Below, one piece after another: positions 486 to 47,155 of a stretch of 64,000 nt of DNA (the first letter of the stretch is position 1; every line of letters begins with the position of its first letter). The notes beneath the pieces are model-generated. The model was not told the DNA's origin and did not search any database. It was given only the letters and a program-made list of their open reading frames with translations. Source of the stretch: Naegleria gruberi (Eukaryota); NCBI GenBank assembly GCA_000004985.1, contig GG738888.1; one strand, given 5' to 3'. The position numbers and the translations under genes were made by a program.

Positions 486-2066
486 TTAGAAAATATTATA
501 AACCTTATCTGATTTCTTTGCCTTTCTAGCGCATTCCAATCTCTTCTCTTCAGTCTTGACAATCTCCTGACAGAATGGTTTGTGAACTTTCCAATTGGAT
601 TTCATACACTCTACAGAACAATATCTTTCAATCTTGCATCCACCACAATAATGATTTGCTTTCTTTCCACAATTGGCACATTTAAAGTCGAATTTCAAAC
701 GACACTTTGCAGGATGAGACAGAATTGGATAGTTTGGCTTGAACAAGATAGCACCCTTAGTATTGAACAATGCATAAATAACTTGTTGAACGGAAACATC
801 GACGAGACCTCTATCTGTTCTGGCTATTTCAAGCTTCTCTAAAGTGTCACGTTTTTCTTCTTCTGAAGTGTCAGGAGAGAAACCAAATTTTACAGGTTTT
901 GGAAAGGTCATGCAACAAATCTTTTCAAAGTAAGCTTGTTGTTCCTTAATCCATTGAGCTGAAATAAATTGGTTGAAAATGATGAATATTTAGAATGTTA
1001 AACGACTTACCTTGAGCTGGGAAACATGGAATTCTTGAATTGATTGGTACATCTTGACACATCTCAGCAATAAGATTTGGAATTTGTGCAAATAACGAAT
1101 CAACAAAAATAAATTGGATCATATTTAACCAATCTTGGAAATTCTCATTCTTGTGCAAAGTTGTTCCAAACTCAAAGGCCAACTTGATACTTTGCATTCG
1201 TGTAAAATTCTCCTTGTATATTTCAACAATTTTCTCTCTAAACACGTATCTCCTTTCTTTGGTTCCTTTCATTAAAGTGCTTTCCAATTGTTCTGGAATG
1301 TCTTCATATTCTGCATTGATCATTTCCCAGCCTTTCTGAACTATTACAAGATTATGCTTGAATAATTCCATTGCAATTTTGTCTTTGGAGTTATTCTCAT
1401 AAGTTTTGGAACGCTTGGCTATTTCTTCTTGAATCATTTCTACTTTCTTTGATGAAATCTTCTTTTTGGCAAGTGATTGACTGGCATTGGCAGTTGTTTT
1501 TTCATGTTCTTTAGGAGAAAAAGCAGCTCTATACGAATCAAAAGTTGGATCCAAACGTTTTCTCATTTCATACGAGCCAGAAAAAATTATTTCATTATCA
1601 ACTTGATGCATGAGAATCTTTTTGAGATAAACGAGAGTGAAAATAGTGCACATCTTGTCCTGAGTTTCGGTTAATCTTGTTCCCTCAATAACTTCTCCCT
1701 CAATTTCATGAAATTGAACTGATAATTGCTTTCTCAATATGAAATTGCTGAGAAGATTACAGACGAAACAAAGCTTGTGTTGAGGAGAAAGATTATCGTA
1801 CATATTTCTGAAAACAGTGTTATGTGAAAAGAAGCCACTATATTCAACAAAGACTATTCACCAAGATGATTTACAACCTTATTCGAAACAAGTTTAAACT
1901 TACCTTCCTTTTCAGGATGAGAAACATTCAAATCTACAAAACGCTCCCAATCTCTAATAATTCGTGGAATCAACAATTTGAATAATTCACAATACTTTTC
2001 ATACATTGGCAATCTCTCCAAAGGAAATGCTATAACTTTACTACACAATTCGTCCCAATCATACAT
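486..2066 (-). CDS. MYND zinc-finger protein, 3 exons: complement(join(486..958,1011..1853,1904..~2066))
   Basis: The last exon carries a MYND-type Cys/His cluster, CANCGKKANHYCGGCKIERYCSVECMKSNWKVHKPFC. ORFs 1854..2135, 946..1803 and 486..911 join into one frame across two introns. One intron (959..1010) runs GTAAGT...TTTCAG. The other (about 1854..1903, 50 nt) runs GTAAGT...AATAG. The first in-frame ATG is at about 2066. Upstream of it the ORF starts with TTG. Confidence 0.6.
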
Positions 2067-2284
2067 TCCAGTCCTTTCGTATTTGGTTGTGTTGACATTT
2101 TTTTTTGGTTGTTTTTTCTTGAAACTAACTCTCAAAGGAGGAACATATTGGGCTAGGCTTGCGCGACAATATTGTAAACTAGGCTATTTTTTTCAAAGCC
2201 TTTGTTTTTCTGGGTTAGTTTCTATACAACAAGTTTAACAAGTTTGGTTGGTGGTTCGATTCCTGGCGCTGTTAACAATATTTT

Positions 2285-4342
2285 TTAATGATGATTTCCC
2301 ATTGTTAATGAATAATTCTTATTGAGTATCTTATTTGTGGTTGTATACATTTCAAAGCTTACCAAAGGGGAAGTAATGAATGGCAATAGATTCCTTCCTG
2401 CCTCTCCCTTCTCCAACACTTTAAATCTCAAATTTTCCATGGCTAGACTTGCCAAAAATGGTTCATTGGTGTTAAATTTTCCCAATCTCAATGTCATGTA
2501 AATGCATTTCATGTTATATCGACAAGATTCCAATAAAAATTCTTCATCTATGAATGGTGCTTTTGCTGCAAGTCCCAATACATTCACGTTAATGTCATGC
2601 AGTTTCAATGTTTCTCTTACAATGTCCTTATCCAATTTGTCAGGACAATCAGGGAGAGTATATCCATCGTATTTGACAACTTGTAACATGAAGCTTTTAT
2701 CAGCTTTCAATTCATCAGCAAGATAGTAGAAACAAAAATGTTTCGTTTTGGAAATTAGTTTGAGCATGAATTCCTTGTCTTTTGCTAGGTGTTTGAATTT
2801 TCTCGACTGTAATAAACTAGGTTGCTTTCTAATCATTAACTCAATGACATCAGGATCATCACTTAAACTACTATACTTGTCTAGGACAGAAATGGAATTA
2901 CTGGCTGCTAGTAAAATTAAATCTCTTTCGTTTTTCAAACCTTTGGACGCGTGGAAAATGGATTGACCATCTTGTTGAACTGCAATTGAAACTACCTCTC
3001 TGTCATTCTTGAGTTCAGCAGAAACATGTTTGAGAATTTCAGGATTGAATTTTAAGGCTTTCATTACAAAAGTTTTGTCAGATTTCAATTCTGAAGTTTT
3101 GATAATGTCAGCACTTTCTCTGATAGCTTGAATCATGATATCTTGATCAGTTTTCAATTCGTTTCGTATGAGAGAGAAAACCTTATTTGGTTTGACAATT
3201 TTTAACAATCTCAAAACGAAACTCTTATTCTGTTTCAACTCGTGTGGAATCTTGTCGAGCATTTTAGGAAATCTAGAAATGGCAGCAATGGAAACATCAT
3301 GATCTCTCTTCACTTCTTCAAAGGCCAATTCATAGGTATTATTGGAGGGATCACATTGTTGAATGGCATCCAGGAAGAACCTCTTATTCTTTTTCAAATC
3401 ATCAGTTAAATATTTGAGAATTGTTGTCTTTTTCTCTGAAATGAGATATTGTAAAATGACTCTTCCATCAGTTTTGAATTTTTCAGGAACCTTTAAATGT
3501 AAATTATTGAGATTATATGCATTTCTGGTAAATTCCAAATCATTTTGCATTGTTTCCTCTATTATTGTTGAATATGGACAGCATCCATGTTTAAATCCTT
3601 CTAATATAATGTAGGGATCCTTCTTTAATTCTGGAGATAATCTATTGAATAGATCTTTTGCACTTTCCAAATTAGGAGACCTCTTTCCCATAATTTTAAA
3701 AGTAAAAAGTGCAAATTCTCTATCATTAAAGAACTGAGATGGTATATGTATGAAAAGTTCAGGTAAATGAGATGAACGTTCGACTGCTTGATAAATTACA
3801 TCTCTATCATTTCTAAAAGTATCAGAAACTGACTCATAGATACAAACATTATTTCGAATACTATCCAAAATGAACTGTTTCTCCTTTAGAAAATGGTCTG
3901 GAATTCCAGCAAATAATTTTCCAAAACGCAACAAATGCAAAACCACATCCCTATCATTCTTCAACTCATCTGACAAGTACGGAAAACACTGTTCATGATG
4001 CACATTAGCAAGTACCAACTCCTTATTTGCTCTCCATTCCAGTGGTACTTTCGATATTGTTAAATCTCCCATGACCAAAGGTATTTTACAACCCCAATAT
4101 TTTCTTCCCTTATTACGTCTGACTAGAATGTTGATGAGATGAGTGTCTTTCAAAATGACATGTCCAAAATGTTCAATCATGATTGAATACTCTTCCGAGC
4201 TGAATGTTTTAAATAGAAAGGAATCGAATTGAAATTTAGTTTTTAACAAATGGGAAGATGGTGTAGAGTCGAGTAGAATTTTCACACAAGCACCGGGAAG
4301 TGAATTTTCAAGTTTTGGCAGCATTATCAAGAGTTGACTCAT
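2285..4342 (-). CDS. Protein of ~685 aa built from tandem ~35-40 aa helical repeats (DUF4116-like repeat protein)
   Basis: Single ORF with an ATG at 4342. It contains more than 12 copies of a repeat with consensus ELKNDR[ED]VVLxAVxxxGxALxxAS, for example ELKNDREVVSIAVQQDGQSIFHAS and ELKADKSFMLQVVKYDGYTL. The same repeat type is fused to a kinase at 16391..18911. Confidence 0.55.
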   Translation of the reverse strand: MSQLLIMLPKLENSLPGACVKILLDSTPSSHLLKTKFQFDSFLFKTFSSEEYSIMIEHFGHVILKDTHLINILVRRNKGRKYWGCKIPLVMGDLTISKVPLEWRANKELVLANVHHEQCFPYLSDELKNDRDVVLHLLRFGKLFAGIPDHFLKEKQFILDSIRNNVCIYESVSDTFRNDRDVIYQAVERSSHLPELFIHIPSQFFNDREFALFTFKIMGKRSPNLESAKDLFNRLSPELKKDPYIILEGFKHGCCPYSTIIEETMQNDLEFTRNAYNLNNLHLKVPEKFKTDGRVILQYLISEKKTTILKYLTDDLKKNKRFFLDAIQQCDPSNNTYELAFEEVKRDHDVSIAAISRFPKMLDKIPHELKQNKSFVLRLLKIVKPNKVFSLIRNELKTDQDIMIQAIRESADIIKTSELKSDKTFVMKALKFNPEILKHVSAELKNDREVVSIAVQQDGQSIFHASKGLKNERDLILLAASNSISVLDKYSSLSDDPDVIELMIRKQPSLLQSRKFKHLAKDKEFMLKLISKTKHFCFYYLADELKADKSFMLQVVKYDGYTLPDCPDKLDKDIVRETLKLHDINVNVLGLAAKAPFIDEEFLLESCRYNMKCIYMTLRLGKFNTNEPFLASLAMENLRFKVLEKGEAGRNLLPFITSPLVSFEMYTTTNKILNKNYSLTMGNHH

Positions 4343-4633
4343 CAGCAGCCAAGCTTCTTTTCATTTTTTTTCTAATATTTTCCAACGAAATTCACTAGAA
4401 CTTGAAAATGTATACAGATAAATGGCGGGAAACTTAAACCACAAACAAATTGAAATTCCTCACCGGACAATTTTAATGTGCTTTTATCCTCATTTAACCT
4501 CCCTCAATTTCTCAACTTTAAAAAAAAATACATCCAACTAACAACCACGAAATCTTTGCCAATTTTTTAAAGAAAACGTGATTCGGAAGTTATTAGATTT
4601 ACCTATTGCGATCATCAATATTAATATTAAAAA

Positions 4634-5463
4634 ATGGATTTTCAAAAGGCTGCAACCAAGTTGAAGGAACGAGGCAATGAACACTTTAAAAAGAATGAAT
4701 TATCGGAGGCTATTAAATGTTATCAACAAGCCTTTGAACATGATGAAGATGCCTTCTTTAAAACAAACTTGGCTCTTTGTTATATTAAATTAAAACAATA
4801 TGAGAAGGCTACGGAGGAGTGTAAATCTGCAATCAAGTTGAATCCAAAGTTTGTAAAGGCTTATTTCTTGTTGGGAGAATGTCATTTGAATTGTTTGAAT
4901 TATGAGCAAGCTGAGAGTGCTTATTTGAAAGCTGAAGTATTGGCTAAGGAATTACATAATACATCCAAATCTATATTGCTGAATATTTATAAAGGAGTCG
5001 ATAGATCGAGAGCAAGGAGATATGAGAAACAAGAACAGGAGAGACAATCAGTAGTTGCAGAATTGAAAAAGTATGTCGAAAAGACGATGGACAATTATGA
5101 AAATATGGAATGGTCAAATCATCAACTGAAAGAGAAGAGTTTAATCTGAAAAAGTTTCAATTAGAGTCCTTCTTTGAACAGAATTTGCATCCACACAAGG
5201 AAACTGAAGTCCCAGATGTTTTGTGTTGTAAAATAACCTATACTATTATGAGAGATCCTGTCATTACAACATCAGGTATAACTTATGAACGATCTGCCAT
5301 TGAGAAACATTTACGAGAGAATGGAACGTTCGATCCTGTAACTAGACAACCTTGTACAATATCACAACTTTATCCAAATTTAGCTGTTAAAGAAATGGTG
5401 GAATCTTGGATTGAGAAACATCCTTACACAATAACAGAAGATCACTACTATATAATGGATTAA
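4634..5463 (+). CDS. CHIP/STUB1-like U-box E3 ubiquitin ligase (TPR repeats + charged linker + U-box), join(4634..5070,5133..5463)
   Basis: Start context is aaaaATGG. The N-terminal part has TPR motifs (KERGNEHFKKNELSEAIKCYQQAF..., KAYFLLGECHLNCLNYEQAE). The second ORF, in another frame, encodes a U-box (VPDVLCCKITYTIMRDPVITTSGITYERSAIEKHL...TRQPC...LAVKEMVESWI). A 62-nt intron from GTATGT at 5071 to AG at 5131-5132 joins the two frames as ...AELKK|KEEFNLKKFQLE.... Confidence 0.8.
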
Positions 5464-5492: not shown

Positions 5493-8400
5493 CTATTGAC
5501 CTTCAATAATGAGTCTCGATTTTAGAGAGCTCAAAATGGTGCTTATTATGGTAAATGATGGACGTTGTTTTGGATCAGAATTCCAACATTGTGTCATTAA
5601 CTTGATGAACTCTCCAACAATATTTCTAAATCTTTCCTTGCATTGGTCTCGATCGAGTGGAACATCACTACTAGAAAAATCATACTCTTGCACATAGGAG
5701 CTCAAATAGGAATCCATTTCTGTATCATTGCTGAAGGGAATAACTGGTCGTTCTCCTTTTAGAACTCTTGGTAGCACTGTGAAGGGAGAAACTTCATTCT
5801 GTCTCGCTTGTGTAATCTTGGTGTTTTTTGTGTGAATGTATGGATTCTCCTCAAAGAATAATTCATACATGATGATCGCAAAACTGAAAACATCAATGGA
5901 TGGAGCTAGGGTGGAACTTGTATGAGATAGTTCAGAATCTAAAAGTTCTGGAGCTATATAGAATAAAGTGCCCATTCCTGTTGTGGTGTTTGTTTGGTTA
6001 TTACCATTCATTAGTCTACTCAATCCAAAATCGCAAACTTTTGCAGTATTATTCGAATCTAGAAGAATGTTTCCAGGTTTTAAATCTCTGTGAATAATTG
6101 GTGGTTTCAGACTGTGCAAATATTCCATTCCACATGCAACATCAATCAGAAGTGATAATTTAGAAATCAAGTCTAGAGAAATCTCACCCTTCCTACATTG
6201 ACTTATTAAATTCTCAATACTTCCCTTCTCCAAATACTCAACCACAAGATAGTGTTTTTTCGGAGTGATTGAAATTCCATAAAACATTAAAACGTTTGGA
6301 TGACGTAATTTGCACAATAGAGATGCCTCCTTTTCAATGTCATCTCTCAATGCATAATTTTCCACATCAACTCTTAAACATTTGATTGCAACAGTATTGT
6401 GATCCCAACGACCTTTAAAAACTACTCCAGATCCACCCTCTCCAATCTTCTTTTCTATAAACAGCTTATCCAATGTAATTATAAAAACAGCACCACTCTT
6501 TGAAGAACTATCATCACTATTTCTGAGATCTTCCTGTGCATCCACAATGTCATTTTCCAATAATCTCTTTTCAATGTCCTTTTCAGCACGTTCTCTACCC
6601 CTCCAATATCGAATAATTTTAGCTAATTTGTAAACTCCATATCCAACACCTGATAATATAATTAGCAAGCTACAAAATGCGAAAAAGGAAGCTACCACAG
6701 CAACGATAATGATGGACTCATAATTTGGCTTGACCTTACAGATAAATGATGATTCTGAACCATAAGTTGCTGGTGTTGATTCATAATCAACTGGACAAGG
6801 TATAATCTCCAATGGAATATCACTATTCGCATGAAAGAATGAGAGTGTGAGAGATGCCTTAATTGGTTGTGTGAATTGCCTCTCAGAAACTGTAATGAAA
6901 ATTCCCTCCACCACTTCAGAAACTCGTGTCTGTTTGGGAATGGTTGCAGTGATCGAGTCAGTACTCACTGAATTAGAATACACTTCCCACATGTACTCTA
7001 CTGAATTTCCAAAAGTGTCCTTGGATGTCGGTTTCAATGTAAATCTCTGTCCTGGAAAGAGAGTTACCACTCCATTCATTGGTTCAAAATCTCCACTCAA
7101 TTTTCCATTAATTTCTTTAGAGACTTGCCAAGTGATTTGTCTAATTGAGGATCCTATATTTCCACCATAGTTTAGAGCACTATTTCCAGTAAAGTTGCTC
7201 TGCAGAAATTCTTTCTTGACAATTTTGTGGAAGAAAATTCCTCCACCAGAGTAGTCAGCTTGATTATCCGAAATTTCCACATCTTCCCAAAGGCAAGCTA
7301 GAGTATCATATTTCAGGTTGAATGAAATTGCTCCTCCTCTCAATGCTCTGTTCATATGGAATTTGGAGGAATAAATTGCAAACTTGGTATGGAAACCTGT
7401 TCCCGTAAAACTCAAAGCACCTCCATTTCCAAGACATTTCGTTGAGGAGCACATTAAACTGGATGTGATGTTTTCAGTGAGTACTGAATTATTTACAAAG
7501 AGTGTTTCATAGGATGAGAAATTGCCTGAACAGAGTATAGCACCACCACTATTTTTTGCTGTATTTGATCGAAATACTGATTCTCCAATTGCTATATTCG
7601 AATCTATTCCACTAATGGCTCCTCCTCCTGCTGATGAATAATTTTCAATAAACTCTGAAAGGAATACGATGATATCACTCCCATAGGATGAGAGAGCTCC
7701 ACCAGTCTTACCATTTCTGTTTCTAATAAATTTCGAGGAGGTAACCAGAGTTTTGTGAGAGGAAAGTGAGCTGGACAATATAGCTCCTCCCAAGACAGAT
7801 ACGTTATCTGTGAAAGTAGATTCGACAATATAGGTTGCTACTACATTGCTCAACAGTAAAACTCCAGTAGAACCTCTATTATGGGCAAATATGCATCTTC
7901 TCACAATGACATTCCTCGAATTTCTAACAGTGACAATGCTTCCCTCTGTATTTTGACTTCCAACGAATTGACAATCTTGAAATTGGACCTCAATTGATTC
8001 TCCAATTGTTATAATATTTCCATTTGATTTGCCAAATATTGTGTGAGAAATTCTGACAACATTCGAGAAGAGAATATTCAAACTTCCATCATTAATTGTA
8101 CTCGTTTTCGTATTAACCAAGCAACCAATCATCACAATCTCCTTAACTTCCTCTATAAATACCAATTTGTCAATATTTATAGTCCCATTGAGGAACCACA
8201 TATTTGTGGCAGCCAATGTGAACTGATCTAGAAAGAAAGACAACTCAGACTCTGTAAATATCGAAATCTCTTCATATTTAAACTCAACTACAGGTCTCGA
8301 ATCATCAAAATCATATCTAACCTTCTTAAATAATGAAAGATGAGCGTCAGTTTCAAATTGTCCACTAATTTTCGAATTTTGCACAATGACATAATTTCCA

Positions 8401-9134
8401 AGAAATTTCCCACCTTTTAGTGTGCAATTTTCAATAAATGCATTTCGATTCTGTTGTAATATTTGCAAATTGAAACCCTTGAATATTGTAACTGCCTTAT
8501 CAAAGGTTTCTCCATAATCAATAAAATATGATTCACAATTAATTGTGGAATTGATCTTGCTTTCCAATTCGATGAATAGTTTGATATCACGCAATAAATT
8601 ATTTGTGGTTAATTCTTGAATTTTCAAATTGTTTTGACAATTATTCGAAACTATATCCGATTCCACATTAATTTTCATGTAAATGATGGCACCGGGACGT
8701 TCCACAGATGGAACATTTCCTATTTGATATTCAATTTCATTCGTAAAATAATTAATTAATTCCTTCATTGATGAAAAACTAATTGTTGAATTTAAAGTGG
8801 ACGAAACATTCGAAAAGGTATATTCGAAATCCAAAGATAAACAATTTACACTAAAAATTGATTCCTCCCGTTGTGTTTTACAAATTTCGTATTCCATCAC
8901 TTTCGAATATTGTGCCATATTTAATAATCTCGTAACCTCTACTTCTGCATTCGAATAGCCTTTATCCGCCGATAGAAATGAAGGTAGTTTATAATTGGTA
9001 TCAAATGGTGAAATGTAATCGGAAAGAGAATAATTAGAAATTGAAATTATATTCGAAGGTCCAATAACCACTAAAAGAAGCAAAATAAACACACTAGAAG
9101 GTGTCAGTGTTTCGTTTCTGTATATTGTAGTCAT
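5493..9134 (-). CDS. Single-pass receptor-like Ser/Thr protein kinase with a parallel beta-helix (PbH1/Pmp-like GGA-repeat) ectodomain; intronless, 1213 aa
   Basis: Signal peptide is MTTIYRNETLTPSSVFILLLLVVIGPSNIIS. The ectodomain has many GG[AG][AI] beta-helix repeats (GGAILSSS, GGALSSYG, GGGAISG, GGAILCSG, GGALSF, GGAISF, GGGIFF). A transmembrane helix IIIVAVVASFFAFCSLLIILSGVGYGVY follows. The cytoplasmic kinase has IGEGGSGVVFKG, VAIK, HRDLKPGNILL, DFG and GTLFYIAPE. Confidence 0.85.
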   Translation of the reverse strand: MTTIYRNETLTPSSVFILLLLVVIGPSNIISISNYSLSDYISPFDTNYKLPSFLSADKGYSNAEVEVTRLLNMAQYSKVMEYEICKTQREESIFSVNCLSLDFEYTFSNVSSTLNSTISFSSMKELINYFTNEIEYQIGNVPSVERPGAIIYMKINVESDIVSNNCQNNLKIQELTTNNLLRDIKLFIELESKINSTINCESYFIDYGETFDKAVTIFKGFNLQILQQNRNAFIENCTLKGGKFLGNYVIVQNSKISGQFETDAHLSLFKKVRYDFDDSRPVVEFKYEEISIFTESELSFFLDQFTLAATNMWFLNGTINIDKLVFIEEVKEIVMIGCLVNTKTSTINDGSLNILFSNVVRISHTIFGKSNGNIITIGESIEVQFQDCQFVGSQNTEGSIVTVRNSRNVIVRRCIFAHNRGSTGVLLLSNVVATYIVESTFTDNVSVLGGAILSSSLSSHKTLVTSSKFIRNRNGKTGGALSSYGSDIIVFLSEFIENYSSAGGGAISGIDSNIAIGESVFRSNTAKNSGGAILCSGNFSSYETLFVNNSVLTENITSSLMCSSTKCLGNGGALSFTGTGFHTKFAIYSSKFHMNRALRGGAISFNLKYDTLACLWEDVEISDNQADYSGGGIFFHKIVKKEFLQSNFTGNSALNYGGNIGSSIRQITWQVSKEINGKLSGDFEPMNGVVTLFPGQRFTLKPTSKDTFGNSVEYMWEVYSNSVSTDSITATIPKQTRVSEVVEGIFITVSERQFTQPIKASLTLSFFHANSDIPLEIIPCPVDYESTPATYGSESSFICKVKPNYESIIIVAVVASFFAFCSLLIILSGVGYGVYKLAKIIRYWRGRERAEKDIEKRLLENDIVDAQEDLRNSDDSSSKSGAVFIITLDKLFIEKKIGEGGSGVVFKGRWDHNTVAIKCLRVDVENYALRDDIEKEASLLCKLRHPNVLMFYGISITPKKHYLVVEYLEKGSIENLISQCRKGEISLDLISKLSLLIDVACGMEYLHSLKPPIIHRDLKPGNILLDSNNTAKVCDFGLSRLMNGNNQTNTTTGMGTLFYIAPELLDSELSHTSSTLAPSIDVFSFAIIMYELFFEENPYIHTKNTKITQARQNEVSPFTVLPRVLKGERPVIPFSNDTEMDSYLSSYVQEYDFSSSDVPLDRDQCKERFRNIVGEFIKLMTQCWNSDPKQRPSFTIISTILSSLKSRLIIEGQ

Positions 9135-16390: not shown

Positions 16391-18911
16391 TTATACAACT
16401 TGATTTGCTTGTTTGAGTTTTTCAATTTCTTGTTTGAGAAGTTCATTTTCATTTCTGAGTGTGGATATTTCATTACTCAAGAGTAAGTTTTCTTGTTTTA
16501 GGGTTGTGTTTTGTTGAATAATATCATAATAGTTGATTAATTGTTGAATATTGAGAAGATCATCCAGTTCCTTGTGAATATTTTCAGAATAATCATTAAT
16601 TTCACCACGGAGATATTTTGTTAAATTGTCGATAATAATCTTGTAAGTAAAGCAGTCCAATCTTTTACGAGGATCTCTTTGAATCATGGTGATGAGACAT
16701 CTGGTAAGTATTTCATTCACACCCCAAGATTTGTTAATCTGCTTATCAATGGTCATTCTTATGGCATGGTGCACTCTCATTTCTCCCTCAGCTGTTACAA
16801 CAGCGCTGTGAAAATATAATCCCTCCTCTGAACTAAAATATGTGAAATTCGAATCAAATTGTGAAATGTCAGTACCTCCAATAAATTGTTTGCTTACTTT
16901 CAACAAACAATCAGTCAATAATTCCAAAAATATACATCCTAATGAAAAGATATCTGATGCTGTTGAAATCTCCCTCTTGTTTTGAATTAATTTCTCCTGA
17001 TATTCATGAACTAAATGTTGTTCGTTGGATTTTTCATAGGTTGAATCTGAAACCTCTGGAGCCATATAAGTATACTTTCCCACATTGATTGTAATTGATT
17101 TTCCTACTTCAATAACTCTCGATTGATCAAAATCAATAATCTTAAACTTGTCACCAATTTTTAAAATATTATTAGGATCCAAATCTCTATTATAATTATA
17201 ATAATAATAAATATTAAAATAATTACCTATGTGCAATGTTTTGATTGTGAACTGATTGGACTGCCTGAAGGATTTTTGCAAACATTTCCAGTACCTCAAT
17301 CATTTTATCCTTTTCCAAGGATGTTCCAACTCCGCTGCTATGGTTTCTTTCTATAATATTTCTTAAAGTTTCTTCACCCAACTCCATGATGGAAAATAAA
17401 TGTTTCGTCTTAATCTTATCTTGACCATATTCCAGAATACCACATTCAAAACAATTAATCTTTCCATCAATTTGTCTCTTTAAGAATTCAATTTTAGCAT
17501 CCATCTTTTTCATGTCATACTCTGGTTGGAATTTAATCTTTACAGCAACAAAAACTTCTCTACGTTTATCAAAAGCTTTGAATACTACACCCTCACCTCC
17601 AAATCCTAAAGAAGAAATCAACTCGTAATTTTTAACTTTCTTCTGCGTAGTAAAAATTTGGAACGACGAAATGACCTTCTTACTGTCACCTGTTGTTTTC
17701 ATATACTCGCTTATCAGCATTTTCCAATCCCAGTTTGGATTTTCATGTTTCAAAATTCGCTTAATAAGAAATACAATTCCAGGGTGTTCCTTTTTCGAAT
17801 AGTGGTGATAGGGAAAATCGTCGACTATCGTCTTTAGAGCTTCCTTAAAGTGTTTTTTACCAACAGGATGTTTAGGTGACTTGGATTCTATATGTTGTTC
17901 CAACTTTATGCAAAATAAGTGGTAATCCAAATCCGCAATTGTTTCAGTTTCAATTTTCAAACTACTTTCGTTCAGTTTCTTCAAAATCATCAGCATGGCA
18001 AATGTTTGCACAAATTTCACACTATAGGTAAATGAAGAAAATATTCCTTTTGAAATAATTTCAGGTTTCTTATCTTGAAAAAGAAAAGGAATCAATCCAC
18101 TCTCATCCAAAGTCTCCTCCTTAAATGCATTCATTACTGTTTTTAAATTTCCGTGGAATATAATCAATTTATCTGCCTTACAAGGATTTCCCTTTGGCAA
18201 ATATTTGAAAACTCTATAATTCAAAGCTACAGCCTCCAACACAACTTGTCGATCAGTCTTTAATTCCTCAGAAGCAAACATGAATGAGAAAGGCTCATGT
18301 TGAATGGCCATAAACACAACTTCCTTATCCCTTCTCAATTCTTCAGAGGCACTTTTGAAAGCAATTCTATCACTCTTCAAAGCTAACATGACAATTTCCC
18401 TATCATTTCGAAATTCATCTGAAATGTCCTGAATAGCACCAGGAGCACTCTGAATGGCTGCCATGACAACTTCCCTGTCCTTCTTCAATTCATCCCCGAC
18501 CAAAAACAACTCCGAAGCTGCTGCATTATTTTGATTATCCTCTTTTTCATGATTTTGTTGTGAATGATGATGCTGATGATTTTTAAAAGCAGGTGCCGAT
18601 GAAGAATTCTCATCAATTCGTTTTTTAGTCAAAGCCGCCAAAACTACTTGTTTATCGTGGCGCCATTTTTCTGAAATTAATTTCAATGAAAAATCAAATT
18701 TTACAGCTGCGTATTGTAGTATGAAATTTCTATCCAATTCTTCCCGCGCTTTTTCAGAGCTTATCTGCAAGACTTGAGCTGATTTACTCTTTTCCAAGGC
18801 TTGGAGAAGAAAGTCACGATCATTCCGAAGTTCGTCTGGTAGTTTGGCATAATTATATGAGGTTGGATTTTGGATAATATCTTTCAGGTAGCGTTCTCTA
18901 CCTGGAGCCAT
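16391..18911 (-). CDS. Protein kinase with N-terminal DUF4116-like tandem repeats; complement(join(16391..17186,17227..18911))
   Basis: ATG at 18911. N-terminal repeats include ELRNDRDFLLQALEKS, ELKKDREVVMAAIQSAPGAIQDIS, EFRNDREIVMLALKSD, ELRRDKEVVFMAIQ and ELKTDRQVVLEAV. The kinase has a G-loop LGFGGEGVVF and VAVK. The catalytic loop HR|DLDPNNIL is split by a 40-nt intron (GTAATT...AATAG) between the R codon's AG and A. DFD replaces DFG (IIDFDQS). APE is MAPE. The C-terminus is a coiled coil (LKQENLLLSNEISTLRNENELLKQEIEKLKQ). Confidence 0.8.
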
Positions 18912-21037: not shown

Positions 21038-22762
21038 ATGAAAAGAACAACTACACAGGAATCTTCGGAAGAAGCACTCTCAGAGCAATCATCATCCAAA
21101 AAGCTAAAACTTGATCAAAATTGTCAGCTTGGTCTTTATTCCTTGCACTCAGATATCAAACTTTACATTTTAGAATTTATTCAATTTTTTCTTTCTCGTC
21201 ACTTGATAGTTTCTGAATTTGATGAGCATTCGTTAGAGCTTGAACATGTTGATGTTTCATCGAAGGAGAAATTGTGGGAACATACCAAGGTGATGGCTAG
21301 GAGACAATTGTTAAAGTTAATGTTTGGTTATTTCGTGGATGAAAGTAGACGAATTCATCTCCTATTCAAGCATGTGAATTTTTGTGCAAGTGGTATTTTT
21401 CATCAACATGAGTTGTTCACAGAGTTGAGATTTAGAGATTTGAAATCAATTGAGTATTCGAGAAATTACTTGTTTTCAAGTAAATATTTTGATTTTAAAG
21501 AGTATTTGCCGAGATTGGAAGCTGTTTGGGGATTAAATATTGAAGTAGAAGAGGATGCAAAGAGTTTTCTTGCTCATGATTTGAGTAGAATGAAATCTGT
21601 TTCTTTTGGTTACCTCGAGAAAGATGTTTGTGTACCAGAATCTATTGGATTTGAAACTTTCTTTTCCAAATTGACCAATCTTACCACTCTCGAACTGTCT
21701 TGTGGTTATATTGATGAAGAGTTTGTTTTTGCCCTGATGAAAAGCGTAAAACATTTGAGAAAGGCCACATTCACAGAGGCCACCTTGAACAATGATGCCT
21801 TACAAATGTTATTGGAACAAGCAGAGTTTTTGGAGGAGTTGGATGTTAGCATGCCAAATGATTCCTTCGATCTTGATTATATATTTGATAGAGTCAAGAG
21901 GCCACTCAAGCTTACTAAACTTTTTGCTGAGAGTAATGATGTTACAGAAAAATTCTTTGTAAATATTGTAAAGGCAGCAAAATACCTTGGTAATTTGAAA
22001 GTTTTATCAATCTCACCTTATATGATCAATGATGAAGAACTTTGGAAAAATTTATTTAATAGCTTCCCTCAATTGACTGAGCTGGAACTAAGCGATCAAA
22101 CTTTAACAGAGTCAATCATGTCACATATTCATGTATTGAAAGAATTACGCTCTCTGAAATCGAATTTAGAAACCACCAAAGGTCTTGAACTTCTTCTCCA
22201 TTTCAAGTCACTCACTCTCTCATGCTTGACTAGAGAAACTAATTTGGATTTCTCCAAGCTGAACCATTTGGAATTTCTTGCCATTGATGCCTTGTACAAT
22301 ACCATATTGGACAATTTCGATAAGGATGAAAGCTTACCAAAGTTAAAGAGAGTCAAACTTTACCTTATTAATGATGTTGAACGCACTATTGATGAAGTTA
22401 AACAAATTGCAGAAAAAAGGCCTGAAATTAGATTTTCCTTGATATTGCATGAAGGTGTAACTCCAGTCGATATCTTTGAGAGAATTCTTTCCTGTAAAGG
22501 AATTGATGAATTGGATAGTTTTAATGCAAAAATTCCAGATGCCATTGAAACTAACTCCACCCTTAAATCCTTAACTATACTTAACGCGAAATCATTAGCT
22601 AATTTGGAACTTTTACAAAACAACAAGACTTTGGAAGTATTGAATCTCTATTCAGCGGATATTTTTGAAGGTGAATATGTGAGTGAAATTTGTAATTTAT
22701 TCCGTAACTCACAAGCTGAGCATATTTCACTTATTGATCCATCTATTGTTGGTGAACCATAA
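21038..22762 (+). CDS. F-box-like / leucine-rich repeat protein, 574 aa
   Basis: Start context is aaaaATGAAAAG. The N-terminus has YSLHSDIKLYILEFIQFFLSRHL, which is F-box-like. Repeated L-rich segments follow (LTTLELSCGY, LKVLSISPYMINDEELWKNL, LTELELSDQTL, LEFLAIDAL). Confidence 0.5.
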   Translation: MKRTTTQESSEEALSEQSSSKKLKLDQNCQLGLYSLHSDIKLYILEFIQFFLSRHLIVSEFDEHSLELEHVDVSSKEKLWEHTKVMARRQLLKLMFGYFVDESRRIHLLFKHVNFCASGIFHQHELFTELRFRDLKSIEYSRNYLFSSKYFDFKEYLPRLEAVWGLNIEVEEDAKSFLAHDLSRMKSVSFGYLEKDVCVPESIGFETFFSKLTNLTTLELSCGYIDEEFVFALMKSVKHLRKATFTEATLNNDALQMLLEQAEFLEELDVSMPNDSFDLDYIFDRVKRPLKLTKLFAESNDVTEKFFVNIVKAAKYLGNLKVLSISPYMINDEELWKNLFNSFPQLTELELSDQTLTESIMSHIHVLKELRSLKSNLETTKGLELLLHFKSLTLSCLTRETNLDFSKLNHLEFLAIDALYNTILDNFDKDESLPKLKRVKLYLINDVERTIDEVKQIAEKRPEIRFSLILHEGVTPVDIFERILSCKGIDELDSFNAKIPDAIETNSTLKSLTILNAKSLANLELLQNNKTLEVLNLYSADIFEGEYVSEICNLFRNSQAEHISLIDPSIVGEP

Positions 22763-31787: not shown

Positions 31788-32206
31788 TTTTTCTTCTCAA
31801 GTAAATCTGTTAGTTGAAACATCATCTTTCTTCATCATCATTTAAAATAGTTAACTTTAGAGTTTCGGAAAAGCATTCTAGATTTGATATCATTTTCAAG
31901 CTTGCTTTTTGGCGCCATTTTTTATTTTAAAAAATATTAAAAAAAATACAAAACATTCAAAGCCTTAATTTTTTTTCATTTTTCATTTAAGGTGCAAAGA
32001 AGAAGAAGTTTTCTCTCTCGGGATGGAGACAGTATTAATTCTGTTTTTATTAGATAAATTTAATTGTTGTCAATGGTTAAAATAGTTGAATCAGGTGTGG
32101 AAGGAAAAATATCCTTGAACGGGCTTGCTTTGGAAAAACAATTTCAAATGTCAGTTCTAACAGCGAACAATAGGAGATGTCATTTCAAAAAAATTAATTA
32201 GATTTG

Positions 32207-34549
32207 ATGAAGTTGGTACAACGGGAGACTTATTGGTTTGCAGTGATGCAATTGATTCTACTAACATTTCTGTTAAAAATTGTTATTGCAGATTCGAATA
32301 TTATTACTACAGTTTCGGATATTAACCAATTTAAAAAGTTACCATCCTCTATTACTATTGTGAACATTCCCTCTTATTATCATGTATTCATAAACATGAT
32401 GGCATCTCTTGCCTCTGTTAATGGAACGAACCCTAGGCCGAAAGATATTATCAATAGATGGCAAGAATCAGGTTCATATTGTGTTTTAACACGCGATTTC
32501 AATAATTTAGAGCCGAGCAAATCGTCCTTCAACTTACCTGATTCCCTATCGAACAGTACAACATTTAAGCAAGTTGGGGTAGACAATATTCCTGTGGAAA
32601 TTGCACATTACTCTTACTCAATTCTTGAAAATGCTCCTTCTCTTGTGATAACACCTCCAGAAGTTTTGAGTAGATGGTTGTTGATTTTGAAAAATTCAGT
32701 GTTTGAAAAGCAAGTAAGGTTGTCCTTATGGAATAGTACATTTAGTGATTCATTTACAATATTCCCCTTGTATGAAAGTCCGTCTTCCATTAGCTATGTG
32801 CAATTGGATGAGGTAGTAAATGCAAAGGATATAATAGTGAGCGAACTAGAAGAATTAATATCAAACGATTTGGAAAAATTCAAGAAATATTATGAAATTA
32901 ATATTGAGGAAGGAAAGGGATTGGGATATTCACCTATTCTTCAATATCAAACTTGTAATTCTTCATTTTCTAATTCTACACAAGTATTGGAGTATCACTT
33001 AGCTCTATTTAGGATTGATTTTTATTTGAATTTGATTTTAAGGAATAAGGATGTGATTAGTGTTGGAGCATTTACACAAGATGGGAAATACAAAACACAA
33101 ATCAAATTCATGGATGAAAGTGTCAGAAGCATTGATTATGCCTACTTAATTCAAGCCATTAGAAACATGCTTATTATTGGAAAGTTTGACTTGTATCTAT
33201 CCTTTTCTAATAATACAGCAACATTCTCTTTGGAGTACTACCAAAATTTAGAAAAGAAGGATTTGAAATCTATTTATCTGTTAATGGTCCACCCTGTTTG
33301 CTTTAGTTTTTACTTTGACTATGCAGATATTTACTATTTTAAAGATGGGCTATTCTTTCCAATTATTGTAAATGATGTTATTTACTTTGGCATTGCACTT
33401 TTTGGAATAATTCTATATCTTGCCAATATTGTGAGTTATCTGTTCAACTTTTTGCTGTTCATTAAGAAGAGAATTCTCTTGCCAATTATTGGACCTCCTT
33501 CTCTGATTGTTTTGAGCTTGTTTTTCACAATCTTAATCAGATCTAAACTTGCATCCGCTGGTTATTGGATTCAAATGATTATTGTTTTCTTCCCAGCTCC
33601 AGTATTAATTGGTAGTTATTTGGTGTGCCTGTATAGATTTGCCTACTTGAAGAATATTGATCTGTGCCACAAATATTGTTGTGAATCACTTAGGTTACAC
33701 AGATGTTTGACTTCTTCTCCACTTGCTGTTTTGTTTTCATTGATTTCAACTGTAGTTTGTTTCATAATTTGTCTCGTGCCAATAATTGCTGCAAGCGTTG
33801 CTCTAGCCTACTCATTCCTCAACCTCCCCCAGGAGATATTCATTACCATGTTTGCTATTGAAGTGATTTTCATATTGGTATGTGCTGGAATATTCTTCGT
33901 TGCTGATTTGGTTAGTAGTGGATTCAAAACCATTCGTAAGAAGGGAATTTCGTACTACCTCTTCTTTGACGATCCCATGGGATATAGAATTGATTTAATA
34001 TTGATGGTTGTTATGTTGATTTCAGTAATTCCAATAATTGCTGGCTCAGTTCAAGATACGACTTCATTCTTTGTGGTGAGAAAGATTGTCTCAATTATAT
34101 ATTTTGCCTTGTTTTATTTTGTTATTGGAGGAACTGTGACATTATCTTATTGGATTAATAGATTGAGAAATTTCAATGTGAAATCAGATTCAACCCAATT
34201 GGAAATTTACTTACGAGATGATGAATTCAGAAAGATCTTTAGAACGTATTGTGCTAATGAATATTCCACAGAAAATTTTATAATTTATGAAGATTTGGAA
34301 AACTTGGATGTGAAAGGAAAATGTACCGAGGAAGAAGTGAAAGAATTTCATCTCAAATACATGACCTCAACTTCTCAATTCGAAGTGAACTTTCCCTCCT
34401 TTGTGAAAAAACGATTTGAGGAAATTTTAGAACAATTAGAATCTCAAACCATCTCCAAACCAACGTCTCCATCAACAGCAAGTGTCAGCACCAACAATTT
34501 ATTGGAATCAGAATCAGTTTTTCTCACTACCAGTGCCATGGTACACTAA
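32207..34549 (+). CDS. 7-8 TM membrane protein with a large N-terminal ectodomain and a C-terminal RGS domain (receptor-RGS fusion)
   Basis: ATG at 32207 (the track ORF starts 3 nt earlier at TTG). Signal peptide is MKLVQRETYWFAVMQLILLTFLLKIVIADS. The ectodomain is about 380 aa with many N-x-S/T sites. Seven or eight hydrophobic helices occupy residues about 390-650. The C-terminus is an RGS fold (EFRKIFRTYCANEYSTENFIIYEDLENLD...KEFHLKYM). Confidence 0.65.
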   Translation: MKLVQRETYWFAVMQLILLTFLLKIVIADSNIITTVSDINQFKKLPSSITIVNIPSYYHVFINMMASLASVNGTNPRPKDIINRWQESGSYCVLTRDFNNLEPSKSSFNLPDSLSNSTTFKQVGVDNIPVEIAHYSYSILENAPSLVITPPEVLSRWLLILKNSVFEKQVRLSLWNSTFSDSFTIFPLYESPSSISYVQLDEVVNAKDIIVSELEELISNDLEKFKKYYEINIEEGKGLGYSPILQYQTCNSSFSNSTQVLEYHLALFRIDFYLNLILRNKDVISVGAFTQDGKYKTQIKFMDESVRSIDYAYLIQAIRNMLIIGKFDLYLSFSNNTATFSLEYYQNLEKKDLKSIYLLMVHPVCFSFYFDYADIYYFKDGLFFPIIVNDVIYFGIALFGIILYLANIVSYLFNFLLFIKKRILLPIIGPPSLIVLSLFFTILIRSKLASAGYWIQMIIVFFPAPVLIGSYLVCLYRFAYLKNIDLCHKYCCESLRLHRCLTSSPLAVLFSLISTVVCFIICLVPIIAASVALAYSFLNLPQEIFITMFAIEVIFILVCAGIFFVADLVSSGFKTIRKKGISYYLFFDDPMGYRIDLILMVVMLISVIPIIAGSVQDTTSFFVVRKIVSIIYFALFYFVIGGTVTLSYWINRLRNFNVKSDSTQLEIYLRDDEFRKIFRTYCANEYSTENFIIYEDLENLDVKGKCTEEEVKEFHLKYMTSTSQFEVNFPSFVKKRFEEILEQLESQTISKPTSPSTASVSTNNLLESESVFLTTSAMVH

Positions 34550-45958: not shown

Positions 45959-47155
45959 TTAATTCAAGATGCATTTCTTTTCTTTTTTTAAACTATTTAA
46001 ATATTTAATATCTTTTTCAATCACTTGTTGTAATATTGAATTTAAATTTGTTTGATTACCAAACCTAATTAACTTAACACCTTCTAGAAATGCATTTTCT
46101 ATACCCTCACCAGTTTTAGCACTACAAATAACTATATTTGTATTTGTTAGTTGATACTCATTAATAATATTAATAATTTCATTTTTCAATTTATCAATTT
46201 CATTGTTATCAGTAATTAAATCCATCTTATTTAATGCAAATATAATTGGAATATCTTCTGAATCTCTGATTCTAATTAATTGTTCAACTAAGGTCTTACA
46301 GAATTCAGCTGAGGAAAAATTAAATAAATCGCAAACATTGATAAAACAATCACCAGTTCTCATATATTGATCTATTCATATTAAATTATTGAGATATTCA
46401 AATCAACTTACCCCTATCAAATTAAATGATAAACAATCACATTTCACAACTTACCTCATAGCTGAGTATTCCTCTTGTCCATCTAATTAAATTAATTAGG
46501 ATTATCAAGTTTAATAATTCAATAAATGAAAATACTAACATGTATCTAATATATCAAGTTCAAACACCCTTCCATCAAATTCAATATTTCTTCTATAATC
46601 ATCATAATAACTTGGATCATATTGATCTGTATATCTATTCTGAATAAATCTAACCACAATCGATGATTTGCCTTATATCAAATATAATTACAATAAAAAT
46701 TAGATGAATAACATACCAACACCACCATCACCTATCATTACAAATTTAAGGTAATTGTCAGTAAAATCTAAATATTTAAATTGTTTATATTTAATATATA
46801 AAGTTAACAAAACAATCCTTTTTAAATTTGTTTTTTTAATTATTTGTTCCTTAATTATTTCATTATTCACTTTTATTGGTAAATAATTTTTCAATAACTC
46901 AAAATAAAATTCATTAAAATAATCACATTGATCATCATCGTACATTAATTTTTTACAACTTGTTTGAAAATTTAATAATTGTTTAATTTTAGTTGTATAT
47001 TTAATATTATAAGAATAACTAGTATCAAGAACATATGATAATATATTTAAATGTATTTCCAAGGGTAAATTAACGAACGTATTTTCATTATTGAATGATC
47101 GCATTTTTTTTAATTTAATTAATAATAACAAAAGTTCATCAAAGTAATCTTGCAA
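45959..47155 (-). CDS. F-box-like N-terminus + canonical Ras-family small GTPase; >=4 introns (exons ~46717..47155, 46540..46671, 46455..46482, [46412..46413?], 45959..46371)
   Basis: The N-terminus NLPLEIHLNILSYVLDTSYSYNIKYTTKIKQLLNFQTSCKKL is F-box-like. G1 GDGGVG|KSS is split by a 45-nt GTATGT intron. The G2/G3 region is [37 protein letters not shown]. The last exon has DQYMRTGDCF..., then G4 FALNKMDL and G5 CSAKTGEG. Confidence 0.7.

What the first reader, a model, noticed from the sequence alone, without database searches (positions are those of the whole stretch)
5493..9134. Receptor-like Ser/Thr kinase with parallel beta-helix (GGA-repeat, Pmp/PbH1-like) ectodomain
The roughly 800-aa extracellular region carries more than 10 GG[AG][AI] triplet-containing repeats about 25 aa long. 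Examples are GGAILSSSLSSHKT, GGALSSYGSDI, GGGAISGIDSNI, GGAILCSGNFSS, GGALSFTGTGF, GGAISFNLKYDT and GGGIFFHKIV. These are typical of right-handed beta-helix adhesins and pectate-lyase folds, and of chlamydial polymorphic membrane proteins. Such a domain fused through a single TM helix to an active-looking kinase (HRDLKPGNIL, DFG, APE) is an unusual receptor design. It may be a carbohydrate or cell-surface sensing receptor.
Basis: seen in the sequence. Interest (0 to 1): 0.6.

Follow-up and report, generated by a model that had tools for sequence, protein, structure and literature searches.

The report
Naegleria receptor kinase with β-helix ectodomain
This is an intact Naegleria gruberi gene for a single-pass membrane receptor with a long Pmp-type β-helix rod on an Ig-like stalk outside the cell and an active-looking Ser/Thr (TKL) kinase inside; it belongs to a small, uncharacterised family found so far only in Naegleria (including the pathogen N. 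fowleri), and its ligand is unknown.

Summary
The finding holds. Window 5493..9134 (-) is one intronless 1,213-aa ORF, identical to N. gruberi NAEGRDRAFT_80827, which is annotated as a hypothetical protein. Its layout is signal peptide, fast-evolving N-terminal region, right-handed parallel β-helix, Ig-like β-sandwich stalk, one TM helix, a conserved juxtamembrane motif, then a TKL-group kinase with all catalytic residues.

An exhaustive HMMER search found 2,702 PMP/β-helix relatives. Only a handful share the full ectodomain plus TM and kinase. All named ones are Naegleria (two N. gruberi paralogs, N. fowleri, N. lovaniensis); the rest are environmental fragments.

It is not a Pmp autotransporter, a plant RLK or a receptor tyrosine kinase. 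The ligand and function are untested, and carbohydrate sensing remains a guess. Protists are already known to pair lineage-specific ectodomains with conserved kinases. I rate this a new variant of a known kind, of moderate interest.

The parts
5493..9134 (-). Complete intronless CDS (1,213 aa plus stop) of N. gruberi NAEGRDRAFT_80827
   Evidence: ORF; 100% identity and 100% coverage to the NCBI protein
9045..9134 (-). aa 1-30: N-terminal signal peptide or signal anchor (hydrophobic core VFILLLLVVIG)
   Evidence: Kyte-Doolittle hydropathy above 1.8 over aa 9-34. No dedicated signal-peptide predictor was available, so cleavage is inferred.
8493..9044 (-). aa 31-214: fast-evolving N-terminal region or cap of unknown fold
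   Evidence: pLDDT mostly below 55; aa 31-330 is detectably similar only to paralog NAEGRDRAFT_70310 (24% identity), with no hit in N. fowleri or N. lovaniensis relatives.
7155..8492 (-). aa 215-660: right-handed parallel β-helix. It is confidently modelled from aa ~320; the start is uncertain.
7155..7814 (-). aa 441-660: eight canonical Pmp-type coils (FxxN, 4-5 aa, then GG[AGN][AIL]). Coil 5 carries a Cys-x4-Cys loop insertion at aa 562-567.
   Evidence: motif positions and register; Chlam_PMP and POMP_repeat above cutoffs; GGA and FxxN columns invariant across the family; the Cys pair is conserved in 5 of the 6 members covering it
6720..7154 (-). aa 661-805: family-specific membrane-proximal module. 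It is an Ig-like (E-set/IPT/filamin-type) β-sandwich with an invariant PGQ motif, followed by a C780-P ... C799 hairpin.
6645..6719 (-). aa 806-830: single transmembrane helix
   Evidence: hydropathy up to 3.02; 6 K/R in the 20 residues after it, net +5, against net +1 before it, so the C-terminus is cytoplasmic
6468..6644 (-). aa 831-889: juxtamembrane segment with conserved motifs YW.(K/R)R..AEKD.EKRLLE and F-I-I-x-(L/I)-D-x-(L/I)
   Evidence: invariant E, K, E, L, I columns; similar ...ERLL... and FIIPIEQL motifs in the window's second receptor kinase
5496..6467 (-). aa 890-1213: TKL-group Ser/Thr protein kinase domain of RD type, with an insert between subdomains X and XI
   Evidence: Pkinase 6.3e-54, PK_Tyr_Ser-Thr 2.9e-50; best solved relatives are CTR1, TNNI3K, ZAK, TAK1 and B-Raf; K918, E936, D1017, N1022, DFG 1035, APE 1061

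Best explanation
A type I, single-pass receptor Ser/Thr kinase of Naegleria.

**Shown.**
- The ectodomain (aa 31-805) is a rod. It has a fast-evolving N-terminal region, a long Pmp-type right-handed β-helix (about 12-13 confidently modelled coils, 8 with canonical FxxN/GGA motifs) and an Ig-like β-sandwich stalk with a conserved Cys hairpin.
- One TM helix follows, with a positive-inside flank.
- The cytoplasmic part is a conserved juxtamembrane motif plus a catalytically complete RD-type kinase of the TKL group.

**Inferred.**
- The helix flank and/or the variable N-terminal tip binds an extracellular, probably surface-bound or polymeric, ligand. Candidates are glycan or protein on prey bacteria, on the substratum or on other cells.
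- Binding clusters receptors. This may be helped by the known tendency of Pmp β-helices to oligomerise and by the Ig-like stalk.
- Clustering allows trans-autophosphorylation of the Thr-rich activation loop (DFGLSRLMNGNNQTNTTTGMGTLFYIAPE) and downstream signalling.

The TM-juxtamembrane-kinase cassette appears to be a reusable Naegleria module joined to different ectodomains. A second receptor kinase in this same window carries NHL and EGF repeats instead.
For: - **Architecture and topology:**
- **Pmp repeat:**, with the spacing rule from PMC11166332.
- **β-helix fold:**
- **Ig-like stalk:**
- **Kinase group and catalytic residues:**
- **Real, conserved architecture.** Full-length PMP + TM + kinase relatives exist in N. 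gruberi (NAEGRDRAFT_70310, NAEGRDRAFT_76450), N. fowleri (FDP41_011595), N. lovaniensis (C9374_001708) and on an environmental contig with the same GC content.
- **Receptor-like divergence gradient.** The kinase is 39-61% identical across the family, the helix 26-38%, the stalk 29-35%, and the N-terminal region 24% or undetectable.
- **Extracellular signs.** There are 12 N-x-S/T sequons and conserved Cys pairs in the ectodomain.
- **Shared cassette.** The juxtamembrane motifs recur in the NHL/EGF receptor kinase at 40956..45720.
- **Precedents.** Pmp passenger domains form homo- and hetero-oligomers and act as adhesins (PMC11166332). Trichomonas Pmp-like TM proteins increase adhesion (bioRxiv 10.1101/454884).
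Against: - There are no experimental data of any kind. No paper in the searched library mentions these gene IDs.
- Ligand, localisation, expression and kinase activity are all untested.
- The N-terminal 180-280 residues are poorly modelled, so the putative binding tip has no defined fold.
- The structure rests on a 7-sequence alignment and on prediction only.
- The conserved FxxN and GGA residues point into the helix core in Pmps. They argue for fold, not for binding specificity.
- The signal peptide was judged from hydropathy only.
- TKL-group assignment rests on best-hit ranking, not on a phylogeny.
Confidence: 0.72

Rival explanations
1. It is primarily an adhesin or contact/phagocytosis receptor rather than a receptor for a soluble ligand. 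The β-helix rod would stick to prey or substratum, as chlamydial and Trichomonas Pmps do, and the kinase would report contact locally to the cytoskeleton.
Against: Nothing here distinguishes this from the main explanation; it is a sub-case of the same architecture. No adhesion data exist for Naegleria. No endocytic tail motifs were examined.
Confidence: 0.3
2. It is a homophilic or heterophilic self-recognition receptor. The β-helices of family members would stack or oligomerise with each other, in cis or between amoebae, so that clustering itself is the signal and no foreign ligand is needed.
For: Chlamydial Pmp passenger domains form homo- and hetero-oligomers, predicted to stack end-to-end (PMC11166332). 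N. gruberi has at least three paralogs.
Against: This is purely analogical. The N-terminal end, which would have to stack, is the least conserved and worst-modelled part. No multimer prediction was possible with these tools.
Confidence: 0.12
3. The ectodomain is an enzyme (a polysaccharide lyase, hydrolase or epimerase of the pectin-lyase-like fold) tethered to a kinase.
Against: A Pfam scan at E <= 1 finds no pectate-lyase, GH28, Beta_helix or NosD family, only Chlam_PMP. A family profile has zero hits at E <= 1 to any PDB sequence. Sequence identity to the enzyme hits is 7-15%. The conserved columns are the structural FxxN and GGA positions.
Confidence: 0.05
4. It is an artefact: a low-complexity region, a pseudogene, or an assembly or annotation fusion of two unrelated genes.
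For: None beyond the S/N/I-rich composition.
Against: It is a single uninterrupted 3.6-kb ORF. The same collinear architecture occurs in three Naegleria species and on an independent metagenome contig. Complexity is normal. The structured core is confidently predicted.
Confidence: 0.02

Closest known systems
Chlamydial polymorphic membrane proteins (Pmp autotransporters, e.g. PmpD/Pmp21)
   Same: They share the repeat unit: FxxN, a 4-5 aa gap, GGA(I/L/V), then 12-17 aa to the next FxxN. Pfam PF02415 is matched above its cutoff. Both have a predicted right-handed β-helix with loop insertions between coils.
   Different: This protein has no PMP_M middle domain and no C-terminal autotransporter β-barrel. 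It is anchored by an α-helical TM segment and continues into a eukaryotic kinase. It is eukaryotic. It has only 8 canonical coils, against an average of 13.6 GGA motifs in C. trachomatis Pmps.
Trichomonas vaginalis Pmp-like surface proteins (e.g. TVAG_212570, TVAG_140850)
   Same: These are eukaryotic type I membrane proteins with a PMP-repeat ectodomain and a single TM domain. They are the nearest described eukaryotic use of this ectodomain (bioRxiv 10.1101/454884).
   Different: The Trichomonas proteins have short cytoplasmic tails with endocytic motifs and no kinase. This protein has a 383-aa cytoplasmic region with a TKL kinase. No direct sequence comparison was made here.
Protist transmembrane kinases, e.g. 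Entamoeba histolytica TMKs
   Same: Both are single-pass ectodomain-TM-kinase receptors of an amoeboid protist. Both follow the general rule that lineage-specific ectodomains recombine with conserved S/T/Y kinase domains (PMC10463195; PMC2880585 abstract).
   Different: Entamoeba TMK ectodomains are Cys-rich (CXXC/CXC repeats; this is from my own knowledge). This ectodomain has only 14 Cys and no CXXC. Most Entamoeba TMK kinases form an Evosea-specific clade II, whereas this kinase is closest to TKLs. The survey's main text does not mention Naegleria or PMP repeats.
Plant receptor-like kinases (RLK/Pelle family)
   Same: They have the same overall logic: a variable solenoid or repeat ectodomain, one TM helix, and an RD-type Ser/Thr kinase of the TKL group. 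SOBIR1 is among the solved-structure hits at 4e-29.
   Different: The best kinase matches are Raf/MLK-like TKLs (CTR1 at 3.5e-40, TNNI3K, ZAK, TAK1) rather than RLK/Pelle. Known plant RLK ectodomain classes (LRR, LysM, lectin, malectin, WAK and others; from my own knowledge) do not include PMP β-helices. Convergence is therefore more likely than membership.
EGFR and insulin-receptor L domains
   Same: They are a precedent for a right-handed β-helix/solenoid serving as the ligand-binding ectodomain of a single-pass receptor kinase (established knowledge from the IGF-1R and EGFR ectodomain crystal structures; not tested here).
   Different: L domains are short (about 150 aa, 5-6 turns), lack FxxN and GGA motifs, are paired with Cys-rich furin-like domains, and drive tyrosine kinases. 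Pfam found no Recep_L_domain hit.
NHL/EGF receptor kinase in the same window (about 40956..45720, minus strand)
   Same: It has the same TM-juxtamembrane-TKL kinase cassette. The kinase is 35% identical, and the ...ERLL... and F-I-I-x-[IL]-[DE]-x-L juxtamembrane motifs are similar.
   Different: Its ectodomain is made of NHL repeats plus teneurin-like EGF modules. The gene has several short introns, one inside the HRD motif, whereas this gene is intronless.

Membership tests
Pfam PF02415 Chlam_PMP repeat-containing proteins | HMM match above the Pfam gathering threshold | tested here: met
   34.0 bits against a 20.6 cutoff.: TIGR01376 POMP_repeat 25.6 against 15.
Pfam PF02415 Chlam_PMP repeat-containing proteins | Alternating FxxN and GGA(I/L/V) tetrapeptides with regular spacing | tested here: met
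   6 of 8 GG motifs have FxxN 8-9 aa upstream, which is a 4-5 aa gap. This matches the rule in PMC11166332.
Chlamydial Pmp autotransporter family | PMP_M middle domain (PF07548) | tested here: not met
   no hit at E <= 1. An Ig-like β-sandwich takes its place.
Chlamydial Pmp autotransporter family | C-terminal autotransporter β-barrel | tested here: not met
   no autotransporter domain. The C-terminal part is an α-helical TM segment plus a kinase.
Right-handed parallel β-helix (pectin-lyase-like) fold | Three-dimensional superposition on solved β-helix proteins | tested here: met
Carbohydrate-active β-helix enzymes (PL1/3/6/9, GH28, GH87, GH110) | Sequence-family membership or a catalytic signature | tested here: not met
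   no such Pfam family at E <= 1.: the family profile has 0 hits to PDB sequences at E <= 1. Catalytic residues were not examined in 3D.
Eukaryotic protein kinase superfamily (active kinases) | G-loop, VAIK Lys, αC Glu, HRD Asp, catalytic-loop Asn, DFG and APE | tested here: met
   GEGGSG 898, K918, E936, D1017, N1022, DFG 1035, APE 1061. Pkinase E = 6.3e-54.
TKL (tyrosine-kinase-like) group | Closest relatives are TKL kinases; formally, placement in a kinome phylogeny | tested here: inconclusive
   the top solved relatives are all TKL (CTR1, TNNI3K, ZAK/MLT, TAK1, B-Raf, MLK, Roco4). No phylogeny was built.
Metazoan-type receptor tyrosine kinases | Tyr-kinase catalytic loop HRDL(A/R)A(A/R)N | tested here: not met
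   the loop is HRDLKPGN, the Ser/Thr type (signature from established kinase knowledge).
Plant RLK/Pelle (IRAK) family | Kinase domain groups with RLK/Pelle/IRAK rather than with other TKLs | tested here: inconclusive
   the RLK SOBIR1 scores 4.1e-29, weaker than the Raf-like CTR1 at 3.5e-40. No phylogeny was built.
Entamoeba TMK families | Cys-rich (CXXC/CXC) ectodomain repeats | tested here: not met
   14 Cys in the ectodomain, and no two of them are spaced as CXXC.
Trichomonas Pmp-like surface proteins | PMP ectodomain, single TM domain and a short cytoplasmic tail with endocytic motifs | tested here: not met
   The ectodomain and TM domain are met. The tail is a 383-aa kinase-bearing region, not a short tail (definition).
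Naegleria PMP-receptor-kinase family (defined here) | Collinear PMP β-helix, PGQ/Cys-hairpin stalk, TM helix, YW..R..AEKD.EKRLLE juxtamembrane motif and TKL kinase | tested here: met

The most novel reading that the evidence does not exclude
The family is an amoebal pattern-recognition or contact receptor system. A Pmp-type β-helix would have been grafted onto a Naegleria TM-JM-TKL cassette, possibly after acquisition from bacteria, where such repeats are most abundant. It would sense prey or host cell surfaces and trigger feeding or invasion behaviour. This would be convergent with plant RLK immunity receptors. The N. fowleri member (FDP41_011595) would then be relevant to host-cell recognition in primary amoebic meningoencephalitis.
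Probability: 0.15. Interest if true: 0.7.

Novelty: new variant of a known kind. Interest (0 to 1): 0.42.

Why it matters
Very little is known about how Naegleria senses its surroundings, and N. fowleri is a lethal human pathogen. This gene defines a small, conserved and completely uncharacterised receptor-kinase family with a well-defined, druggable kinase and a distinctive surface-exposed rod. It shows that the bacterial-style Pmp adhesin fold has been wired directly to eukaryotic phospho-signalling. It also gives a second example within one 64-kb window of Naegleria reusing one TM-JM-kinase cassette with different ectodomains. That makes domain shuffling in early-branching eukaryotic receptor evolution directly testable. 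The gene is already in public databases with automatic domain calls, and lineage-specific ectodomains on protist kinases are an established theme, so the conceptual surprise is moderate.

Tried and rejected
- **Word-indexed homolog searches were nearly blind to this family.** The ectodomain alone found only itself and one PMP protein. The 7-member profile A1 found 22 PMP or β-helix proteins but not the known paralogs. The stalk/TM/JM profile A2 returned nothing, not even the query's own protein. Because of it I could not take a full census of family size.
- **Exact-sequence contig look-up** of the window protein found nothing.
- **The AlphaFold-database (afdb50) fold library was unavailable**, so I could not test whether similar PMP+kinase models exist in other eukaryotes.
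- **BLAST self-comparison** found no long internal repeats. The coils are too divergent and are recognisable only through motifs and profiles.
- **Literature:** no paper mentions the five gene IDs, or 'polymorphic membrane protein' with Naegleria in a relevant way. The N. gruberi genome paper is not in the searchable library. The TMK survey has no held supplements.
- **Readings considered and rejected:** low-complexity artefact, gene-fusion or pseudogene artefact, catalytic CAZyme ectodomain, membership in Pmp autotransporters, RTKs or Entamoeba TMKs (see the membership tests).
- **Origin of the β-helix:** the nearest non-family PMP relatives are spread over bacteria, archaea (Methanosphaera), a green alga (Caulerpa) and metagenomes. 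No horizontal-transfer donor can be named.
Full report
**1. What is in the sequence.**
Window 5493..9134 (minus strand) is a single ATG-initiated ORF of 1,213 codons with no interruption. It is 100% identical over its full length to the NCBI protein 'hypothetical protein NAEGRDRAFT_80827 [Naegleria gruberi]'. So the window is N. gruberi nuclear DNA, about 33% GC.

The neighbours are ordinary eukaryotic genes. They include 2-oxoglutarate dehydrogenase E1, a TPR/U-box protein and DUF4116 repeat proteins. They form no functional cluster with this gene.

**2. Checking the observation.**
Hydropathy shows two hydrophobic segments: aa ~14-33 (signal peptide or anchor) and aa 806-831 (TM).

- The 20 residues after the TM helix carry 6 K/R (net +5). 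The 15 residues before it are net +1.
- The region between the two segments has 12 N-x-S/T sequons and 14 Cys.
- This is a type I topology with an ectodomain of about 775 aa.

An eighth motif, GGNI, is at aa 657. Spacings are 29, 25, 27, 41, 29, 30 and 27 aa.

The enrichment itself is far beyond chance: 7 strict motifs against a mean of 0.086 in 5,000 shuffles, none of which reached 7.

The region is not low-complexity. segmasker masks only aa 445-467 and 499-516 in the repeat region. Local entropy there is 2.88-2.90 bits, against 2.99 bits in the kinase domain.

The kinase motifs are all present: GEGGSG 898, K918 in VAIK, αC E936, HRDLKPGN with D1017 and N1022, DFG 1035 and APE 1061.

**3. 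The ectodomain repeats are of the Pmp type.**
Pfam Chlam_PMP (PF02415) scores 34.0 bits against a gathering cutoff of 20.6. NCBIfam TIGR01376 POMP_repeat scores 25.6 against 15.

Six of the eight GG motifs have an FxxN tetrapeptide 8-9 residues upstream, which is a 4-5 aa gap. A seventh has FVNN further upstream, separated by a Cys-x4-Cys loop insertion. The eighth has ISDN in place of FxxN.

The next FxxN follows each GGA after 12-17 residues. This is the spacing rule described for chlamydial Pmps, where each FxxN/GGA unit forms one coil of a β-helix and the conserved residues point into the core (PMC11166332).

**4. Fold.**
I modelled aa 31-805 with AlphaFold2, using a 7-member family alignment (A1).

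- Mean pLDDT is 67 and pTM is 0.63.
- pLDDT is 82-97 over aa ~320-650, which is all-β with a period of about 26-28 residues.
- pLDDT is 66-84 over the membrane-proximal part.
- Confidence is poor for the first ~280 modelled residues.

- GH87 α-1,3-glucanases;
- NosD, PL6 lyases, phage tailspikes and the PfbA adhesin.

Foldseek hits are weaker but of the same fold class.

The helix probably extends N-terminally to about aa 215 through coils that lack GGA motifs, but confidence there is low.

**5. Membrane-proximal module.**
Between the last coil and the TM helix lies a family-specific module, aa 661-805. It contains an invariant PGQ motif and a conserved C-P...C pair.

**6. Kinase.**
Pkinase scores 6.3e-54 and PK_Tyr_Ser-Thr scores 2.9e-50. 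The closest solved kinases are all in the TKL group: CTR1 (3.5e-40), TNNI3K, ZAK/MLT, TAK1, B-Raf, MLKs and Roco4. The plant RLK SOBIR1 scores 4e-29.

The catalytic loop HRDLKPGN is of the Ser/Thr type, and the kinase is an RD kinase. From general kinase knowledge, that implies regulation by activation-loop phosphorylation. The loop here is Thr-rich. I did not build a phylogeny, so the subgroup assignment is provisional.

**7. Relatives.**
An exhaustive HMMER search of 1.84 billion representative proteins, using aa 31-805 as the query, found 2,702 hits at E <= 1e-3. Nearly all match only the repeat region, in multiple stretches.

Those that carry names are PMP or β-helix repeat proteins from bacteria, an archaeon, a green alga, or unnamed metagenomes.

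Only a handful align across the whole ectodomain, and each of these continues into a TM helix and a TKL kinase:

- N. gruberi NAEGRDRAFT_70310 (ectodomain about 35% identical);
- N. gruberi NAEGRDRAFT_76450 (partial, on a short contig);
- N. fowleri FDP41_011595 (1,272 aa);
- N. lovaniensis C9374_001708 (1,240 aa);
- two environmental fragments.

One fragment lies on a 6-kb metagenome contig with 33.4% GC. That contig encodes a full-length collinear homolog with its own signal peptide, which a prokaryotic gene caller has split into three pieces.

None of the other ~165 retrieved proteins has a kinase domain.

Divergence across the family is graded:

| Region | Identity to family members |
|---|---|
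| Kinase | 39-61% |
| TM/juxtamembrane | 35-44% |
| Stalk | 29-35% |
| β-helix | 26-38% |
| N-terminal 300 aa | 24% or undetectable |

This is the pattern expected of a receptor with a conserved signalling module and a rapidly evolving distal ectodomain.

**8. A reusable cassette.**
The same window holds a second receptor kinase at about 40956..45720 (minus strand). It has NHL repeats, teneurin-like EGF modules, a TM helix and a kinase 35% identical to this one.

Its juxtamembrane region carries similar motifs...LDERLL... and FIIPIEQL, against IEKRLLE and FIITLDKL here.

This suggests that Naegleria recombines one TM-JM-TKL cassette with different ectodomains. That fits the general conclusion of a cross-kingdom survey of transmembrane kinases: protist ectodomains are lineage-specific, and about 40% lack Pfam annotation (PMC10463195). 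The survey's main text mentions neither Naegleria nor PMP repeats.

**9. How it most likely works.**
*Shown:* the topology, the folds and a complete set of catalytic residues.

*Inferred:*
- The β-helix flank and/or the variable N-terminal tip binds an extracellular ligand.
- Receptor clustering permits trans-autophosphorylation and signalling.

The known functions of PMP-repeat proteins are adhesion and oligomerisation. This holds for chlamydial Pmps and for Trichomonas Pmp-like TM proteins, which increase adherence. I therefore favour a surface-bound or polymeric ligand and contact sensing over a small soluble ligand.

An enzymatic ectodomain is unlikely. No carbohydrate-active family is detected by sequence, and the conserved positions are the structural ones.

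The 'carbohydrate sensing' idea is not excluded, but no evidence specifically supports it.

**10. Comparison with known systems.**
The protein contains Pmp-type repeats. It is not a Pmp autotransporter, because it has no PMP_M domain and no β-barrel. It resembles other systems in these ways:

- It resembles Trichomonas Pmp-like surface proteins in its ectodomain and TM helix, but it replaces their short tail with a kinase.
- It resembles plant RLKs and Entamoeba TMKs in logic, but not in ectodomain type or, apparently, in kinase subfamily.
- EGFR and insulin-receptor L domains are a precedent for a β-helical solenoid on a receptor kinase. This comes from established structural knowledge and was not tested here. 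They are short, unrelated in sequence and coupled to tyrosine kinases.

**11. Verdict.**
The gene is a genuine, conserved member of a small receptor-kinase family, so far found only in Naegleria, that has not been described in the literature I could search.

It is best classed as a new variant of a known kind: single-pass receptor Ser/Thr kinases with lineage-specific ectodomains. Interest is moderate. The architecture is distinctive and touches N. fowleri biology. However, it is already visible through automatic domain annotation, its function is unknown, and the general principle is established.

Noticed in passing
window 40956..45720 (-): A second receptor-type kinase gene: signal peptide, NHL repeats (PF01436), teneurin-like EGF modules (PF23106), TM helix, juxtamembrane motifs resembling those of the studied gene, and a TKL kinase 35% identical to it. 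It is split over at least three reading frames. One short intron-like interruption with in-frame stops lies inside the HRD motif (IVHR | DLKPAN).
   Followed up: partly
window 17223..18911 (-), probably continuing into 16391..17299 (-): DUF4116 repeats (E = 3.3e-44) are followed by the N-lobe of a protein kinase (PF00069, 3.9e-6). This is an apparent DUF4116-kinase fusion and the third kinase gene in the window.
   Followed up: no
window 2285..4342 (-): A 685-aa protein made almost entirely of DUF4116 repeats (E = 1.4e-56, at least 6 copies), immediately downstream of the region studied.
   Followed up: no
window 4634..5149 (+) and 5110..5463 (+): A TPR-repeat ORF and a U-box ORF overlap in different frames. 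Together they look like one CHIP/STUB1-like E3 ligase gene interrupted by a short intron.
   Followed up: no
L001 (ENA ERZ929261 metagenome contig, 6,078 bp), 1325..5025 (+): This environmental contig has the same GC content (33.4%) as the window. It encodes a full-length PMP-receptor-kinase homolog that a prokaryotic gene caller has cut into three 'genes'. The frame break falls near the HRD motif, about where the window's NHL/EGF kinase gene has an intron. A Ras/Roc GTPase gene lies upstream.
   Followed up: partly
window 59109..63257 (-), 32204..34549 (+), 21038..22762 (+), 53419..54723 (-), 946..1803 (-): Long ORFs (1,382, 781, 574, 434 and 285 aa) with no Pfam match at the thresholds used.
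   Followed up: no
window 51572..53413 (+): A 613-aa protein with a T4-type RNA ligase domain (PF09511, 1.1e-35), next to a pseudouridine synthase gene at 49924..51411.
   Followed up: no
window 46001..48000: GC content drops to 0.26, against about 0.33-0.36 elsewhere in the window.
   Followed up: no
P0003 (NAEGRDRAFT_70310) and P0152 (N. fowleri FDP41_011595): The public gene models of the paralog and the N. fowleri relative look truncated. NAEGRDRAFT_70310 starts at a position aligning to about aa 73 of this protein, has no signal peptide, and ends before kinase subdomain XI. The NCBI FDP41_011595 model lacks the N-terminal hydrophobic segment that is present in an ENA version of the same cluster (P0004).
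   Followed up: partly
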